64,000 bases of DNA from a plasmid. A program made the position numbers. The stretch is taken from assembly GCF_056746865.1 (NCBI RefSeq), contig NZ_JBWKMP010000004.1; one strand, given 5' to 3'. Positions within the stretch are counted from its first letter, which is position 1. Every line of letters starts with the position of its first letter. Shown one piece after another: positions 37,901 through 43,900 of the stretch.

Positions 37901-40900
37901 GGAGCTGTATTTTCCCGCTCTCGCTGGGCAGTATCAAAGTCAGTCAGGGTAAGGTCCCCGACACGGCGAACCCGTCGATGCCCATTCAGATTTGTCCGGC
38001 ACCGCCGCCGCTGTTCAGGCGTATCGGGCTGGCCATTGGTTACTGGGAGCCGATGGCGCTGACGGATGTCACCCGGTCACCGGGATGCATGGTGAACCTG
38101 GGCTTCAGCCTGCCAGCTTTTGGTAAAACGGCACAGGGAACGGCGAAAAAGGATGAGAAGCAGGTGAACGGGGCGTTCTATCACGTTCACTGGTACAAAT
38201 ACCCGCTGACGTACTGGCTGAACATCATCACATCGCTGGGCTGTCTGGAAGGTGGTGACCTGGATATCGCTTATCTTTCTGAAATTGACCCCACCTGGAC
38301 GGACAGCAGCCTGACCACCATTCTCAATCCGGAAGCTGTCATCTTTGCCAATCCGATAGCACAGGGGGCCTGTGCAGCAGATGCCATTGCCAGCGCCTTT
38401 AATATGCCTCTCGATGTTCTGTTCTGGTGTGCCGGTTCGCAGGGCAGCATGTACCCGTTCAATGGCTGGGTGAGTAATGAGTCCAGTCCGTTGCAGTCCT
38501 CCCTGCTGGTCAGTGAACGCATGGCGTTCAAGCTGCACCGTCAGGGCATGATTATGGAAACCATCGGGAAAAATAACGCCGTCTGTAATGAATATCCGTC
38601 CCCAATCCTGCCCAAAGAACGCTGGCGTTATCAGATGGTGAATATGTATCCGGACAGCGGACAGTGCCACCCGTTCGGGCGCAGTGTGATGCGCTGGGAG
38701 ACGGGAAAAAATCCGCCCAACACAAAGAAAAACTTCGGCTACCTGATGTGGCGTAAACGTAACTGTGTATTTCTGTAACTTAAACAAAAAGAGGAATATT
38801 TTAAATGGAAAAGAAATTAAGCAGTAAATACATTCATATGTATATGAGTATATCCCGAGTGTTCATTCGTTTGACAGGAAATGTATTAAAACTGTTTCCT
38901 TTTGCTATGGTGATATGCCCTGTGGTGTGGTTTTATCTTTGCCCTGAACATATTATCTCAGACATTGTTAACGACTGGCAGGATGCAGATACACTGGAAA
39001 AAATACTGCTTGTCAAACTGTATCTGAAGACGGTTCTTATTCTGACAGTGGTAAGCGTTGTTGTCTTGTATCTTTCGTCAGATAAGTTTATGCCTGTTAA
39101 ACGCAGGAAATGAGTCTGGTGGTTCTCATAAATATAACTGTGTGTGCATGTGTACAATATAAGTAAAGGTGCGTTATGGGATTTTTCTCGTTTTTACGAA
39201 AGATAAGTAATAAAGAAAAAGGGGTGGTTATCTATGAGAAGCAGTGGTTCTCACTGCTGGAAAAGGTGAGTGCTTTTGATGAGGTCAGACAATGGGCTGA
39301 AAGTAATGGTGGAGCATATTATCCTCTGCTGGAGTGTCGTCGGCTTACAGACAGTGAAAATGTCAGGAAATCAGAGGATATACTGAACCGACTGGAGTTT
39401 ATTGACAGAAGATTTCGGGAATTCATCAGCATTATGTCTGAACATATTAATAATGATAAAACTAAATCCATGTGGGAGAGGGAATTGTCTGAATATCCAC
39501 CGGAAAAAATATACCAGGTCCGGAGAGAGGGAGAACATCTGTCATTAAAAAATTATGGTGATGATATTACTCTGAACAGAGATACCGCCGTGGCTACGGT
39601 GCAGATTACTGTCAGCAGAAAATGCATTACTCAGGAAGAAATGGATGAATTATATGCATTGTCTGAGAGACTGAAAGAAAAGTGCGCCGGTAATTAAATT
39701 ATATCACTGTGCCGGGAGATGATATGAGCCGGAAAATATTTGAACTTTTTGCCCTGACAGCAGGACTGTTTATTTCTGCCCACGCTTCGGAAAATGTGAA
39801 TACACCCGAAAACCGCCAGTTCCTGAAGCAGCAGGAAACACTGAGTCAGCAGTTACGTGAAAAACCGGACACACAGCTGCAGGCATGGGCAGAACAGCAG
39901 GTCAGGGCGAATCCCCTTCAGCATTCCGATAACCAGTTTCTCGATGAACTGGTCCGTAAACAGCAGGCTGCTCAGAAGGATAAACCACAGCAGGGTGCCG
40001 TGTATTTTGTGTCGTTTTCCATACCCGAAGAGGGGCTGAAACGGATGCTGGGAGAAACCCGGCACTACGGTATTCCGGCCACACTGCGGGGTATGGTGAA
40101 CAACGACCTGAAAGCCACGGCTGAAGCAGTGCTGTCTCTGGTGAAAGACGGTGCGACCGATGGTGTTCAGATTGACCCGACGCTGTTTTCACAGTACGGC
40201 ATTCGCAGCGTGCCGGCTCTGGTGGTGTTCTGCAGCCAGGGGCACGACATCATCCGGGGAAATCTGCGCGTCAGACAGGCGCTGGAGAAAGTGGCCGCCA
40301 CAGGAGACTGCCGGCAGGTGGCTCAGGGACTGCTGGACGGCACCGGGGATAAGTCGCAATGAGTTTACCTGCAGGCTATTACCGGATTGACCCGGACATC
40401 CGTGCACTGGTGGCCGCGATGAACGTTCACGGATTTCGTACATATGCGTCCTGTCAGGGGCATGGTTTCCCTGTTACAAAGCTGCCGCCTTATATCGCCT
40501 TTGCCTGTCCGGTAAAAATGGCTGCCCTTCTGGAGCAGCGACTGCGGCAGGATGCTGAATCAGCAATACCACGTCTGACATGGGGATGGTCGGTGAAGGG
40601 GACTTTTAACAGTGATTTTCAGCTTTGCTTCCGGCTTCAGCCTGAAGGCCCTCATCACTGGTATCACCGGTACTGTCGCCGCTCACTGCGTGCAGACTTC
40701 AGGACGCTGGTCCGATTAGTGAATCCGTAAATCTGTTCCCGTTAAGGAGGCATTGATGGCGCTGACAAAGAAACAGCGGGAAAAACTGCGTATGAAATTC
40801 GGTGGCCGTTGTGCGTACTGCGGCTGTGAACTGCCGGAGAAAGGATGGCATGCCGACCATGTTCAGGCGGTGCTCCGCAAGTCAGAGCAGTGCATGAAGG

Positions 40901-43900
40901 CTGCAGAAAAGCGCATTTTCAGGCTGAAATCCACCGGTGATGTTTTCAGACCGGAGGCCGACTGTCCGGAAAACCTCGTCCCGGCCTGTGCGCCGTGCAA
41001 CCTGCTGAAAACAACATATTCGCTGGAGATGTTCAGAACGCAGGTGTCCCTGCAGGTTGAACGGGGGCGAAGAAGCAGCGTGAATTTCAGGACCGCAGAA
41101 CGGTTCGGGCTGATTCAGGTGGTGAACAAACCAGTCGTGTTCTGGTTTGAGCAATATCAGAGGGAGAGTGAGGTATGAAACGTCTTCTGCCATTGCTGCT
41201 GGGGCTGGCAGTCAGTGTGGCACAGGCTGACAGCAACAGTGATTACCGGGCGGGTTCTGATTTTGCCCGTCAGATTCAGGGGCAGGGTACAGGCAGTATT
41301 CAGGGCTTTAAGCCACAGGAGAGTATCCCCGGCTATAACGCTAATCCGGACGAGACAAAATATTACGGTGGTGTGACTGCTGGCGGGGATGGCGGCCTGA
41401 AAAATGACGGCACCACGGAATGGGCGACCGGTGAAACCGGAAAAACTATCACAGAGTCATTCATGAACAAGCCGAAAGACATTCTGTCACCGGATGCACC
41501 GTTCATTCAGACCGGCAGGGATGTGGTGAACAGGGCTGACAGCATTGTAGGAAACACAGGCCAGCAGTGTAGTGCACAGCAGATAAACCGCAGTGAATTT
41601 ACAAACTATACCTGTGAACGGGACACGATGGTGGAGGAGTTCTGCACACGGACTGCCAGGATCACCGGAGACTGGAAATACACGGATGAATATCGTGAGG
41701 TGACGATACCGCACTCACAGTTCCGGTTCAGTATGAACGGGCTGAAACTGGTGTTCAGTGTCACGGCTCCGGTAACCGGTACAGTGGAAAGTGCATCATT
41801 GTCTGTATACGCCGCTTTTTTCTTCCTGAATTCTCGTTATACCTTCATGAATTCAACGTTCAATGTTGGCCTGGTAAACGGGCAGTCGGGTACTTTCCCC
41901 TTGTCCGGGGCGACAGGTTTGCAGGTGACACAGGGGCAGGTACTGACCGGCAGTGGCTGTACTGCTAACGGTAACTGTCTTTCTGGCGGGAACGGTGACC
42001 GACAGGTTTATGAGAAACTAGCCAGCGGCGCGTCCACCTTTACGCTGAAACTCAGGATGAAGGTCCGTGATAAAGAATGGGTTCCACGGGTGGAGTGGGT
42101 GGAGAGTTGTCCGTTTAATAAAGCGGATGGCGTGCTGAAAGGTACTGAGTGTTCAGAGCCGGGTGGTACGAAAACCGGAGTGATGGAAGGTAAACCCTGG
42201 AGCATCACACAGGCATGCTGGGCATACCGGGATAAATATGTCACTCAGTCCGCAGATAACGGCACCTGTCAGAAATATGTCGATAATCCGGCCTGTACGC
42301 TGGCCTCACGTCAGTGCGCGTTTTATTCCGATGAGGGAACCTGTCTGCATGAGTATGCCACGTATTCCTGCGAGTCAAAAACATCAGGAAAAGTGATGGT
42401 CTGTGGTGGTGATGTCTTCTGCCTTGACGGTGAATGCGATAAGGCACAGAGCGGAAAAAGCAGTGATTTTGGTGAGGCAGTATCACAGCTGGCTGCGCTT
42501 GCCGCCGCAGGTAAGGATGTTGCCGCCCTGAATGGTGTGGATGTCAGGGCTTTCACGGGCGAGGCGAAATTCTGCCGTAAGGCCGCAGCCGGCTTCAGTA
42601 ACTGCTGTAAGGATGGTGGCTGGGGTCAGGATGTGGGGCTGGCGAAGTGCAACAGTGAAGAAAAGGCACTGGGAAAGGCAAAGGACAACAAACTGACGGT
42701 GAGTGTGGGCGAGTTCTGTTCGAAAAAGGTGCTGGGCGTCTGCCTGCAGAAAAAGCGCAGCTACTGCCAGTTTGATTCGAAGCTGGCGCAGATAGTCCAG
42801 CAGCAGGGGCGTAACGGGCAGTTGCGTATCGGGTTTGGCAGCGCCAAAAGTCCTGACTGTCGGGGGATTACGGTTGATGAGCTGCAGAAAATTCAGTTCG
42901 ACAGACTGGATTTCACTAACTTCTACGAAGACCTGATGAATAACCAGAAAATCCCGGACAGTGGCGTTCTGACGCAGAAAGTGAAAGAGCAGATTGCTGA
43001 CCAGCTGAAACAGGCAGGGCAGTAAGGTATGGGAAACAACCGGGGGAAATGATGAAGGTCATATTCACGTCGAACCGTTTTATTGATTTTCTTATCCGGC
43101 TTTTGATTACAGCGATTGTCATTTCCCCGGTAATTATCTGGTCGTGGGATACGGTAAAAGAAACCACGGCAGACGGGATGCTTGCCGCTGCTTTCGTTAT
43201 CCTTTACTCCGGTGTGCTCCTGTTTATTCTGTATTTTTGTTTTTCTGCCCTGACTGGCCTGCAGAAAGCTGATGAAAGAAAAAATGATGAAAGGAATGAA
43301 GATGAATAAAGCATTACTGCCACTGTTACTCTGCTGCTTTATTTTTCCGGCGTCAGGGAAAGATGCAGGCTGGCAGTGGTATAACGAGAAAATAAATCCG
43401 AAGGAAAAAGAAAATAAACCTGTACCTGCAGCCCCCCGTCAGGAGCCGGATATTATGCAGAAACTGGCCGCGCTGCAGACGGCAACAAAGCGGGCGCTGT
43501 ACGAAGCCATTCTGTATCCCGGCGTGGATAATTTTGTGAAATATTTCCGGCTGCAGAATTACTGGACTCAGCAGGCCGGGCTTTTCACCATGAGTGCTAA
43601 AAAGGCCATGCTGGCACATCCCGAACTGGACTATAACCTGCAGTACAGCCATTACAACGGCACGGTACGGAACCAGCTGGCGGCAGACCAGGCGCAGCAG
43701 CGACAGGCCATTGCGAAACTGGCTGAACACTACGGCATCATGTTTTTTTACCGGGGGCAGGACCCCATCGACGGGCAGCTGGCGCAGGTCATTAATGGCT
43801 TCAGGGATACCTATGGTCTGAGTGTTATTCCCGTTTCCGTGGATGGCGTGATTAATCCGCTGTTGCCGGATTCCCGGACTGACCAGGGGCAGGCGCAGCG

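What the first reader, a model, noticed from the sequence alone, without database searches (positions are those of the whole stretch)
40359..41178. Two-gene insert between trbC and traN: unknown 123-aa protein plus an HNH endonuclease
In the F order I recall, traN follows trbC directly. Here a 123-aa ORF (Cys/His-containing, no family recognised) and a 141-aa HNH nuclease (CAYCG...HADH...CAPCN) are translationally coupled into the operon: stop/start overlaps with trbC upstream and traN downstream. An HNH nuclease expressed with the transfer machinery could be a homing-type selfish element, a nuclease against competing DNA, or part of a small defence or anti-defence pair with the upstream protein.
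Basis: partly seen in the sequence, partly recalled or inferred. Interest (0 to 1): 0.5.

Follow-up and report, generated by a model that had tools for sequence, protein, structure and literature searches.

The report
Two-gene cassette in plasmid transfer operon
Inside the mating operon of an IncFII resistance plasmid sit two extra, uncharacterised genes: a small protein resembling the archaeal/eukaryotic tRNA methyltransferase TYW3, whose relatives recur inside conjugation gene clusters, and a phage-type HNH nuclease; each also occurs without the other, so they are probably not a dedicated pair.

Summary
Two ORFs lie between trbC and traN: 40359-40730 (123 aa) and 40756-41178 (140 aa from the ATG). 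Both end genes overlap their neighbours by ATGA, and F and R100 lack the ORFs. Against R100 the novelty is an 892-bp block (40326-41217) that also replaces the last codons of trbC and the first of traN.

The cassette is common but uncharacterised. It is in 537 PLSDB plasmids and 307 of 5,426 complete E. coli genomes, annotated only as 'hypothetical' plus 'HNH'.

The genes are not an obligate pair. pSLT-like Salmonella plasmids have the HNH alone. Other E. coli and Klebsiella plasmids have ORF1 alone. ORF1 relatives sit at five different junctions of F-type tra operons, and in P-type T4SS and ICE DNA-processing clusters. None was found in 50,697 phage records.

ORF1 models confidently (pLDDT 94). 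Its best solved-structure matches are the four TYW3/Taw3 entries, and it keeps D...TxxSCxG, with His in place of TYW3's essential Arg.

The HNH has an intact D-H/N/N centre and two CxxC pairs, and has homologues in 179 phage records.

Both genes are under purifying selection. Function is inferred, not shown: a conjugation-linked TYW3-like enzyme beside a phage-derived, possibly selfish, nuclease.

The parts
40326..41217 (+). 892-bp accessory cassette as defined against R100: last ~12 codons of trbC, ORF1, the HNH gene and the first ~14 codons (signal peptide) of traN
   Evidence: Similarity to R100 stops at 40325 and resumes at 41218. pHNPK9-FOS, whose trbC is R100-like, shows the same R100 break points, 6953 and 7030. 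No repeats flank the block.
40359..40730 (+). ORF1, 123 aa: small cytoplasmic TYW3-like (RAGNYA-fold) protein with signature D11 ... T28-x-A-S31-C32-Q-G34-H35, P44-Y45, W77
40744..40750 (+). Shine-Dalgarno AAGGAGG serving the HNH gene
   Evidence: Read from the sequence. It lies 5 nt upstream of ATG 40756, the start RefSeq uses in pHN7A8.
40756..41178 (+). HNH endonuclease gene, 140 aa: C19xxC22, H32-A-D34-H35, N73, C78xxC81-N82, plus a conserved helical C-terminal region (about residues 90-135)
   Evidence: Invariant residues. PHROG 2118, E 9e-58. AF2 pLDDT 85; the closest solved structures are HNH domains of Cas9, Gme HNH and Cap5, all at weak E-values (0.04-1). ATGA overlap with traN.
39724..40362 (+). 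trbC (context): a divergent allele, 86% identical to R100 while neighbouring tra genes are 96-98% identical
   Evidence: NCBIfam TrbC, E 2e-126. Identity profile.
41175..43025 (+). traN (context): downstream gene whose start codon overlaps the HNH stop

Best explanation
SHOWN
- The stretch is a 0.9-kb accessory cassette inside the long tra operon of an IncFII (pHN7A8-like) plasmid.
- It has no promoter-like or terminator-like site of its own and overlaps its neighbours' stop and start codons. It is therefore most likely made only when the transfer genes are expressed.
- It holds two genes that are distributed independently of each other and are both kept by purifying selection.

INFERRED, gene 1
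- ORF1 is a minimal relative of the TYW3/Taw3 class of S-adenosylmethionine-dependent methyltransferases. It keeps the acidic residue and the T-x-x-S-C-x-G core of the TYW3 active site, with His in place of Arg.
- Its family is tied to conjugation machinery rather than to the HNH.
- I propose that it is a cysteine-dependent enzyme that binds a nucleotide cofactor, probably SAM, and modifies a nucleic acid in transfer-competent cells. The most plausible target is the plasmid DNA that is about to be, or has just been, transferred, which would help the plasmid establish in a new host.

INFERRED, gene 2
- The HNH is a free-standing phage-type nuclease with an intact metal-ion active site and a conserved C-terminal region that may bind DNA.
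- I propose that it entered the slot secondarily, between ORF1 and traN. It would then behave as a selfish or competitive element that cuts related DNA lacking the cassette, for example the plain trbC/traN junction of a co-resident F-like plasmid. That would favour copying or retention of the cassette.

The two proteins do not need each other.
For: Operon position
- Overlapping ATGA at both ends, an SD before the HNH, no +-strand promoter or terminator, no Rfam match and no flanking repeats.
- GC content is 54-55%, like the neighbouring tra genes.

Independence of the two genes
- 537 PLSDB plasmids hold both.
- The HNH is alone at trbC|traN in pSLT-type plasmids and in thousands of Salmonella contigs.
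- ORF1 is alone at trbC|traN in E. coli CP024291 and in K. pneumoniae pZZ40-KPC, the latter at 55% identity.
- A profile search of all fetched loci finds no ORF1 relative next to the IncHI or phage HNH genes.

ORF1's link to conjugation
- Relatives lie between trbI and a DsbA-like gene, between traW and traU, between trbB plus a toxin-antitoxin pair and traH, and between traH and traG.
- Others lie after virB11 in a P-type T4SS, after SSB-TopB in an ICE, near a TraI_2_C relaxase-domain gene, and next to the TraF signal peptidase in pVA1. One is fused to a PLD nuclease beside SSB and ParA.
- 793 of the 920 PLSDB plasmids with a hit are typed conjugative.
- There is no hit in 50,697 phage records.

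ORF1's link to TYW3
- The AF2 model has pLDDT 93.9.
- Pfam TYW3 matches 5 of 130 family members at E<=1e-3 and 29 at E<=0.1.
- The family profile aligns 'iD..I..LV...n.....T.aSCqGH' onto 'VD.DI..L...IN.....T.SSCSGR' of 2qg3 and 2drv.
- D/E11, T28, S31, C32, G34 and H35 are each conserved in at least 92% of sequences.
- These positions correspond to the TYW3 active site as defined in PMC5311493 and PMC2034487.

HNH
- C19, C22, H32, D34, H35, N73, C78, C81 and N82 are invariant.
- PHROG 2118 matches at E 9e-58.
- 179 phage records hold a homologue, in early-gene regions of P22-like, lambdoid and T4-like phages.

Movement as a block
- The same cassette, with the same break points, sits on an R100-like trbC (pHNPK9-FOS) and on a trbC that is 86% identical to R100 (the window).

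Selection
- dN/dS is 0.085 for the HNH and 0.15-0.17 for ORF1.
Against: No activity has been measured for either protein.

ORF1
- It lacks two residues that matter in TYW3. The Arg that is essential in yeast TYW3 is His in 125 of 130 family members, and no equivalent of the SAM-contacting His is conserved.
- The first Ser of the motif is mostly Ala.
- The N-terminal extension that forms the TYW3 SAM cleft is largely missing.
- It could therefore be a non-catalytic nucleic-acid or nucleotide binder.

HNH
- Strong purifying selection, host-like GC content and divergence in step with the pSLT backbone (dS 0.55, against 0.88 for traU) point to long vertical residence rather than recent homing.
- In RB49-like phages the homologue is present beside the ligase gene in the 59 matching records, with no presence/absence polymorphism among the listed rows.
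- Ordinary homologous recombination between F-like plasmids would equally explain the shared break points.
Confidence: 0.45

Rival explanations
1. The two proteins form one functional unit: for example a nuclease with its immunity or modification partner (like a restriction-modification or toxin-antitoxin pair), or a two-part defence or anti-defence system expressed with the transfer genes.
For: They are adjacent, co-oriented and probably co-transcribed in 537 plasmids. One looks like a methyltransferase relative and the other is a nuclease. One distant ORF1 relative is fused to a different (PLD) nuclease.
Against: The HNH is kept alone, under purifying selection, in pSLT-type plasmids found in thousands of Salmonella assemblies. 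A nuclease that needed ORF1 for protection should not survive there. ORF1 is kept alone at the same and at other tra junctions. No ORF1 relative lies next to the IncHI or phage HNH genes. PADLOC gives only weak generic HNH matches and nothing for ORF1.
Confidence: 0.1
2. The HNH is not selfish but serves the plasmid. It could degrade competing incoming DNA (phage or rival plasmid) in donors and new transconjugants, or process DNA structures during transfer or establishment.
For: dN/dS is as low as for essential tra genes (0.085). It has been retained for a long time in pSLT and in epidemic IncF33 plasmids that conjugate well. The family is present in 2,706 plasmids, 2,452 of them typed conjugative, including IncHI2 and IncHI1B. 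It is present beside the DNA ligase gene in all 59 RB49-like phage records that matched.
Against: Most F-like plasmids, including F and R100, do without it. There is no match above threshold to any catalogued defence system. No target or phenotype is known.
Confidence: 0.25
3. ORF1 is a non-enzymatic accessory protein, for example a small nucleic-acid-, nucleotide- or protein-binding module that assists or regulates the secretion machinery, and its likeness to TYW3 is only at the level of fold.
Against: C32, H35, S31, T28 and G34 are near-invariant, an acidic residue is kept at position 11, and all align with the TYW3 catalytic cluster. Such a pattern is typical of an active site. The protein has no hydrophobic N-terminal stretch (by inspection), whereas the neighbouring assembly proteins are mostly periplasmic or envelope proteins according to published F-plasmid work (not tested here).
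Confidence: 0.25
4. The cassette is neutral hitch-hiking DNA with no current function.
For: It is absent from F and R100, which transfer efficiently. The tra region is a known mosaic.
Against: Both genes show clear purifying selection over substantial synonymous divergence. Their reading frames are intact in hundreds of plasmids. The catalytic residues are invariant.
Confidence: 0.05

Closest known systems
TYW3/Taw3 (Pfam PF02676, UPF0130): SAM-dependent tRNA-yW N4-methyltransferases of archaea and eukaryotes
   Same: ORF1's best solved-structure matches are all four TYW3/Taw3 entries. It has an N-terminal acidic residue followed about 21 residues later by T-x-x-S-C-x-G, aligned to the TYW3 motif (S/T)xSSCxGR. 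It has a two-strand-plus-helix repeat like the RAGNYA core. Some family members reach Pfam TYW3 at E<=1e-3.
   Different: ORF1 is 123 aa, against roughly 190-270 aa for TYW3. Arg is replaced by His, the first Ser by Ala, and no equivalent of the conserved His is present. Most of the N-terminal SAM-cleft extension is missing. The family is bacterial and carried on plasmids and ICEs, whereas wyosine bases do not occur in bacteria (PMC2938197), so the substrate must differ. Pfam does not match the window protein itself.
Free-standing HNH endonucleases of phages (PHROG 2118; in behaviour compared with the T4 Mob-type and I-HmuI-type homing nucleases, from general knowledge)
   Same: It is a small stand-alone HNH gene wedged between conserved genes with overlapping stop and start codons. 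It shares the D-H/N/N catalytic residues and four zinc cysteines. Homologues of 40-87% identity occur in P22-like, lambdoid and T4-like phages. At trbC|traN it shows presence/absence polymorphism with sharp break points inside the flanking genes.
   Different: No cleavage site or homing event is known. The gene is under strong purifying selection and has been resident for a long time. It is present in all 59 matching RB49-like phage records. It lies in a plasmid transfer operon rather than a phage genome.
Non-essential small genes of the F tra operon (trbA, trbE, trbJ, artA, traR and others)
   Same: Like them, it is a small variable gene embedded between essential tra genes and absent from some F-like plasmids. 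The function is unknown.
   Different: There is no sequence relation to any of them. Both proteins are predicted to be cytoplasmic and to act on nucleic acids, not to be envelope or pilus-assembly factors.
Orphan DNA methyltransferases and anti-restriction genes of plasmid leading regions (general knowledge)
   Same: The role proposed for ORF1, modification that helps entering DNA, is the same. Some ORF1 relatives lie beside SSB, ParA or TopB genes typical of such regions.
   Different: ORF1 has a different fold (not Rossmann). In F-like plasmids it is in the tra operon, not the leading region. No activity has been shown.

Membership tests
TYW3/Taw3 methyltransferases | Characteristic alpha/beta fold (RAGNYA core with N-terminal extension and SHS2 insert) | tested here: inconclusive
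TYW3/Taw3 methyltransferases | Signature motif (S/T)xSSCxGR (PMC5311493) | tested here: not met
   The family has T28-x-A30-S31-C32-x-G34-H35. T, the second S, C and G are kept in at least 92% of sequences. The first S is Ala in 104 of 130 sequences. The essential Arg is His in 125 of 130 and Arg in only 3.
TYW3/Taw3 methyltransferases | Invariant N-terminal Asp that contacts SAM | tested here: met
   Position 11 is D or E in 126 of 129 sequences and aligns with the Asp of 2qg3 and 2drv in the profile alignment.
TYW3/Taw3 methyltransferases | Invariant His at the end of a RAGNYA strand (binds the SAM carboxylate) | tested here: not met
   H35 is the only near-invariant His. Positions 45-50, at the end of the second strand, hold Y/V/A/F/R/A.
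TYW3/Taw3 methyltransferases | SAM binding and methyl transfer to a wyosine precursor in tRNA-Phe | not testable with these tools
   This needs biochemistry. Wyosine derivatives are not found in bacteria (PMC2938197), so this exact substrate is very unlikely.
HNH (beta-beta-alpha-metal) nuclease superfamily | Catalytic D-H, structural Asn and metal-binding Asn/His on a beta-beta-alpha core | tested here: met
   D34-H35, N73 and N82 are invariant in 17 diverse homologues. Foldseek's best solved-structure matches for the AF2 model are HNH domains, all at weak E-values of 0.04-1. Matches to individual Pfam HNH models stay below threshold because a 37-residue insert splits the motif.
HNH (beta-beta-alpha-metal) nuclease superfamily | Zinc-binding CxxC ... 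CxxC pairs (in the zinc-finger subclass) | tested here: met
   C19, C22, C78 and C81 are invariant.
Homing endonuclease genes (free-standing) | Presence/absence polymorphism at one site between otherwise similar genomes | tested here: met
   pHNPK9-FOS is 97% identical to R100 up to 37 nt before the trbC stop, and 95% identical from 43 nt into traN onward. It differs by the cassette between those points. F and R100 have the empty site.
Homing endonuclease genes (free-standing) | The enzyme cuts the empty allele and the gene is copied into it by repair | not testable with these tools
Homing endonuclease genes (free-standing) | Sporadic distribution among close relatives, and decay after fixation | tested here: inconclusive
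   The gene is sporadic across phage types. It is nevertheless present in all 59 matching RB49-like phage records, and it is under strong purifying selection in plasmids.
Two-gene defence, toxin-immunity or restriction-modification pair | The partners co-occur obligatorily | tested here: not met
   Each gene is found alone at the same junction and elsewhere.
Two-gene defence, toxin-immunity or restriction-modification pair | Match to a catalogued defence system | tested here: not met
   PADLOC gives nothing for ORF1. The HNH gets only weak partial matches to generic HNH components (E>=6e-4).
Transposon, insertion sequence or integron cassette | Terminal inverted repeats, target-site duplication or an attC site, plus a transposase or integrase | tested here: not met
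   No repeats bracket 40326-41217. No transposase or integrase gene lies in or next to the cassette.

The most novel reading that the evidence does not exclude
The ORF1 family is a previously unrecognised bacterial branch of the TYW3 class, carried only by conjugative plasmids and ICEs. It would be an active cysteine-dependent (probably SAM-using) enzyme that modifies the transferred DNA, or a host RNA, during mating. That would make it a new kind of conjugation accessory or anti-restriction factor, and the first bacterial job for this fold.
Probability: 0.2. Interest if true: 0.75.

Novelty: new variant of a known kind. Interest (0 to 1): 0.45.

Why it matters
IncF plasmids are the main carriers of antibiotic resistance in E. 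coli, Klebsiella and Salmonella, and the pHN7A8/IncF33 lineage is an epidemic one. About one in six F-type transfer regions in PLSDB carries this cassette, and roughly as many again carry one of its two genes. Even so, both genes are annotated only as 'hypothetical' and 'HNH'.

The more interesting half is ORF1. It belongs to a family of about 300 sequence clusters with no Pfam entry. Relatives turn up inside conjugation gene clusters of several types (F-type, P-type, ICE), at many different positions. The family retains most of the catalytic signature of an enzyme class known only from archaeal and eukaryotic tRNA modification. If it is active, it would point to an undescribed nucleic-acid modification step linked to mating.

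The HNH half bears on whether selfish nucleases shape the well-known mosaic structure of tra operons.

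Tried and rejected
Direct family scans of ORF1
- Pfam, NCBIfam, PHROGs, PADLOC and PDB sequence searches all returned nothing.
- A Pfam scan of one Arg-containing family member (P0192), run to see the TYW3 alignment, also returned nothing.

Literature
- Searches for the cassette, its RefSeq protein accessions, the pSLT locus tag, 'trbC and traN', TYW3 with conjugative, and RAGNYA with conjugation found no paper that treats these genes.
- The F-like comparative papers and the IncF33 papers do not mention them.

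Transposon or integron cassette
- Rejected: no flanking repeats and no recombinase.

Hidden RNA element or own promoter/terminator
- None found.

ORF1 and the HNH as halves of a split longer phage protein
- Considered because PHROG 2118 is 301 positions long and the HNH matches only positions 161-274.
- Rejected: ORF1 does not match that PHROG and has no phage homologue.

HNH remnant in the ORF1-only plasmid CP024291
- None was detectable in the 93-nt spacer.

ORF1 remnant in pSLT
- There is only a weak one. The 7 codons after the trbC stop share 14 of 21 nt with the ORF1 start. This is suggestive, not proof.

Homing test in RB49-like phages
- All listed relatives keep the gene, so the test was uninformative or mildly negative.

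HNH as a terminase-associated packaging factor
- Rejected on context: the phage homologues lie in early regions (ea, nin, next to ligase), not beside terminase.

Full report
WHAT IS THERE

The window is the backbone of an IncFII plasmid. Rfam finds the traJ 5' UTR and FinP at 27.5 kb, antisense RNAs in traG and traI, two sok copies, and CopA at 63.8 kb. The stretch 40300-41250 is 100% identical to pHN7A8 and many other plasmids.

Two + strand ORFs lie between trbC (39724-40362) and traN (41175-43025):
- ORF1 runs 40359-40730 and encodes 123 aa. Its ATG overlaps the trbC stop (ATGA).
- The HNH gene ends at 41178, and its stop overlaps the traN ATG (ATGA).
- The ORF lister starts the HNH at TTG 40753. 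However, AAGGAGG (40744-50) sits 5 nt before ATG 40756, and RefSeq uses that start (140 aa).

In plasmid F, trbC overlaps traN directly, and the R100 junction sequence is the same.

The region 38600-41400 has no promoter-like or terminator-like site on the + strand. No Rfam match occurs in 38500-41500, and no repeats bracket the insert. GC content is 54-55%, like the neighbouring tra genes.

BOUNDARIES AND MOSAIC CONTEXT

Identity of the window to R100 varies along the region:
- 97.7% through traC-traU, up to 38778.
- No detectable similarity from 38779 to 39723.
- Only 86% across trbC, ending at 40325.
- No similarity again until 41218.
- 96.4% through traN-traF.

A second plasmid, pHNPK9-FOS, is informative. 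It is 97% identical to R100 from traC through trbC, up to 37 nt before the trbC stop. Similarity resumes at 95% from 43 nt into traN. Between those points it has the same two genes, and the R100 break points are the same (6953 and 7030).

The movable unit is therefore about 892 bp (window 40326-41217). It includes the last ~12 codons of trbC and the first ~14 codons of traN. It occurs on at least two different trbC backgrounds.

HOW COMMON, AND ARE THE TWO GENES A PAIR?

In PLSDB, 3,309 records match the junction and 537 carry both genes. Among 5,426 complete E. coli genomes, 307 carry the whole cassette and 439 carry at least part of it. Of the 474 places found, 469 are on plasmids.

The genes also occur separately:
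- pSLT-type Salmonella plasmids have trbC-HNH-traN. The same arrangement is seen for a 139-aa variant indexed in more than 2,300 blocks of public assemblies. By tblastn, 183 PLSDB plasmids fall in the 90-95% identity band.
- E. coli plasmid CP024291 has trbC-ORF1-traN with no trace of the HNH.
- K. pneumoniae pZZ40-KPC has a 55%-identical ORF1 relative in the same slot, overlapping both neighbours.
- From the identity bands (687 plasmids at >=80% identity, minus the 537 with both genes), I estimate that about 150 plasmids have ORF1 only.
- IncHI2 and IncHI1B/FIB plasmids carry a longer HNH relative outside the tra genes. A profile built from the ORF1 family finds no ORF1 relative in those loci or in the phage loci.

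In pSLT, the 7 codons after the trbC stop share 14 of 21 nt with the start of ORF1. This may be a deletion scar, but it is weak evidence.

Both genes are under purifying selection:
- HNH, window vs pSLT: dN/dS 0.085 at dS 0.55.
- ORF1: 0.15-0.17 at dS 0.24-1.9.
- For comparison, traU 0.05 and trbC 0.08-0.18.

These data argue against an obligate two-protein system and against junk DNA.

ORF1

Direct scans find no family in Pfam, NCBIfam, PHROGs, PADLOC or PDB sequences. An exhaustive HMMER search finds 299 cluster representatives at E<=1e-3. In AlphaFold DB the closest matches across Proteobacteria are nearly all unnamed.

An alignment of 130 members gives these conserved positions:
- Invariant: G34 and W77.
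- Near-invariant: L17, V18, N22, T28, S31, C32, H35, P44, Y45, F48 and F83.
- Position 11 is acidic in 126 of 129 sequences.

The AlphaFold2 model is confident (pLDDT 93.9, pTM 0.86). Its order of elements is helix, two strands, helix, two strands, then helices.

Evidence for a link to TYW3:
- Pfam TYW3 matches 5 family members at E<=1e-3 and 29 at E<=0.1, although not the window protein itself.
- The family profile aligns 'iDpkIrpLVaamnatgvirTiaSCqGH' to 'VDFDIVELLDLINSFDDFVTLSSCSGR' of AF_2059, and likewise to PH1069, at weak E-values of 0.15-0.29.

TYW3 is defined by the motif (S/T)xSSCxGR plus an N-terminal Asp and a His. Asp, Cys and Arg are essential in yeast, and Asp and His are needed for SAM binding (PMC5311493; active-site prediction in PMC2034487). 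ORF1 keeps the acidic residue, Thr, the second Ser, Cys and Gly. It has His for Arg and Ala for the first Ser, has no equivalent of the His, and has only a short N-terminal part.

I therefore call it TYW3-like and not a TYW3. Wyosine bases do not occur in bacteria (PMC2938197), so any substrate must differ.

WHERE ORF1 RELATIVES LIVE

ORF1 relatives were found in these settings:
- Between trbI and a DsbA-like gene in an F-type tra operon.
- Between traW and traU in an E. coli IncF plasmid.
- Between trbC and traN (the window).
- Between trbB plus a toxin-antitoxin pair and traH in Providencia.
- Between traH and traG in Morganella.
- Downstream of traG in an ICE-like region.
- After virB11 in a P-type T4SS on a chromosome.
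- Directly after SSB and topoisomerase III in an ICE.
- Near a TraI_2_C relaxase-domain gene, as a tandem duplicate.
- Beside the TraF signal peptidase and a lytic transglycosylase in Vibrio pVA1.
- Fused to a PLD-family nuclease next to SSB and ParA, on three contigs.

One short contig was uninformative.

In PLSDB, 920 plasmids have a hit and 793 of them are typed conjugative. None of 50,697 phage records has a hit. The family is thus tied to conjugative elements, not to the HNH.

THE HNH

C19xxC22, H32-A-D34-H35, N73 and C78xxC81-N82 are invariant in 17 diverse homologues. So is a C-terminal block (R112, A114, F117-G-L119, P126-V, F129, F131-E, Y134). A variable insert of about 37 residues splits the motif, which explains the sub-threshold Pfam matches.

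PHROG 2118 ('HNH endonuclease') matches at E 9e-58. The AF2 model (pLDDT 85) finds Cas9, Gme and Cap5 HNH domains as its best solved-structure matches, all at weak E-values (0.04-1). A profile search finds 5,133 proteins at E<=1e-5.

Homologues are present in 179 phage records, including:
- P22-like phage g341c (87% identity), in the ea region.
- Lambdoid phage HK225, in the nin region.
- RB49-like phages, next to the DNA ligase gene.

These are early-gene positions, not terminase neighbourhoods. In RB49-like phages all 59 records that matched the ligase-HNH region keep the gene, judging from the listed rows. That is not what an actively homing gene would show.

INTERPRETATION

Shown:
- A co-transcribed accessory cassette with defined break points.
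- Two genes that are distributed independently of each other and are under purifying selection.
- ORF1 is TYW3-like and linked to conjugation.
- The HNH is catalytically intact and shared with phages.

Inferred:
- ORF1 is an enzyme built round the conserved Cys/His pocket, probably using SAM, that modifies a nucleic acid in transfer-competent cells. Transferred plasmid DNA is the most attractive substrate.
- ORF1 was in the trbC|traN slot first. A 55%-identical relative occupies the slot without an HNH.
- The HNH came in later as a phage-derived free-standing nuclease. It may favour the cassette by cutting alleles that lack it.

Points against these inferences:
- The Arg and His of TYW3 are missing.
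- The sequence evidence for TYW3 homology is weak.
- The HNH appears to have been resident vertically for a long time.
- Plain recombination could account for the mosaic pattern.

My confidence is about 0.8 that the genes are independent. It is about 0.7 that ORF1 is homologous to TYW3, and about 0.3 for each proposed mechanism.

NOVELTY

The cassette is present in thousands of public records and annotated by PGAP only as 'hypothetical protein' and 'HNH endonuclease'. I found no paper on it.

The HNH is a new member of a known kind. ORF1 is a new variant of a known kind: a bacterial, mobile-element-borne TYW3-like family with an altered motif. To my knowledge, within the literature I could search, its link to conjugation machinery has not been described.

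Noticed in passing
window 38805-39113 and 39176-39697: Two AT-rich ORFs lie between traU and trbC: one of 102 aa (hydrophobic) and one of 173 aa. Their GC content is 37-40%, against 53-56% for the tra genes. They have no NCBIfam, PHROG or PADLOC match. They are absent from F. R100, pSLT and pHNPK9-FOS carry a different ~100-aa ORF at this junction. This is a second variable slot in the same operon.
   Followed up: partly
window 39724-40325: The trbC allele is only 86% identical to R100, while traC-traU upstream is 97.7% and traN-traF downstream is 96.4% identical. The whole stretch 38779-41217 is a recombinant patch, not just the two-gene insert.
   Followed up: yes
L019-L021 (metagenome and NCBI contigs), gene at L019:2017-3183: An ORF1-family domain is fused to a PLD-type (HKD) nuclease domain in a 388-aa protein. 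The gene sits next to SSB, ParA-like and replication genes of a plasmid, and is seen on three independent contigs.
   Followed up: partly
P0177 (L027:1164-2183) and P0268: Some family members carry two tandem ORF1-like domains in one protein. P0177 lies near a TraI_2_C relaxase-domain gene.
   Followed up: no
L004:1386-5859 (IncHI2 plasmid pTBMCR401): The 177-aa HNH relative of IncHI2 plasmids lies about 1.1 kb downstream of a 794-aa PAPS-reductase-family gene, separated from it by three small unknown ORFs, and is followed by a DUF6012 gene. This may be a separate accessory or defence-like cluster.
   Followed up: no
L025:1719-3638 (phage g341c) and L024:3001-3593 (phage HK225): In both a P22-like and a lambdoid phage, the HNH homologue is immediately followed by the same small gene, annotated as an O-polysaccharide acetyltransferase inhibitor or ES18 gp39-like. 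Phage g341c also has a second, unrelated HNH fused to EaE just upstream.
   Followed up: no
L026 and (RB49-like phages): The query spanning the ligase and HNH genes matches two to four places per phage genome, three in most. This suggests repeated or paralogous sequence, possibly further HNH copies, in these genomes.
   Followed up: no
window 44045-44161: As in pHN7A8, trbA and artA are missing between traF and traQ, whereas F has both and R100 has trbA. This is another presence/absence difference in the operon.
   Followed up: partly
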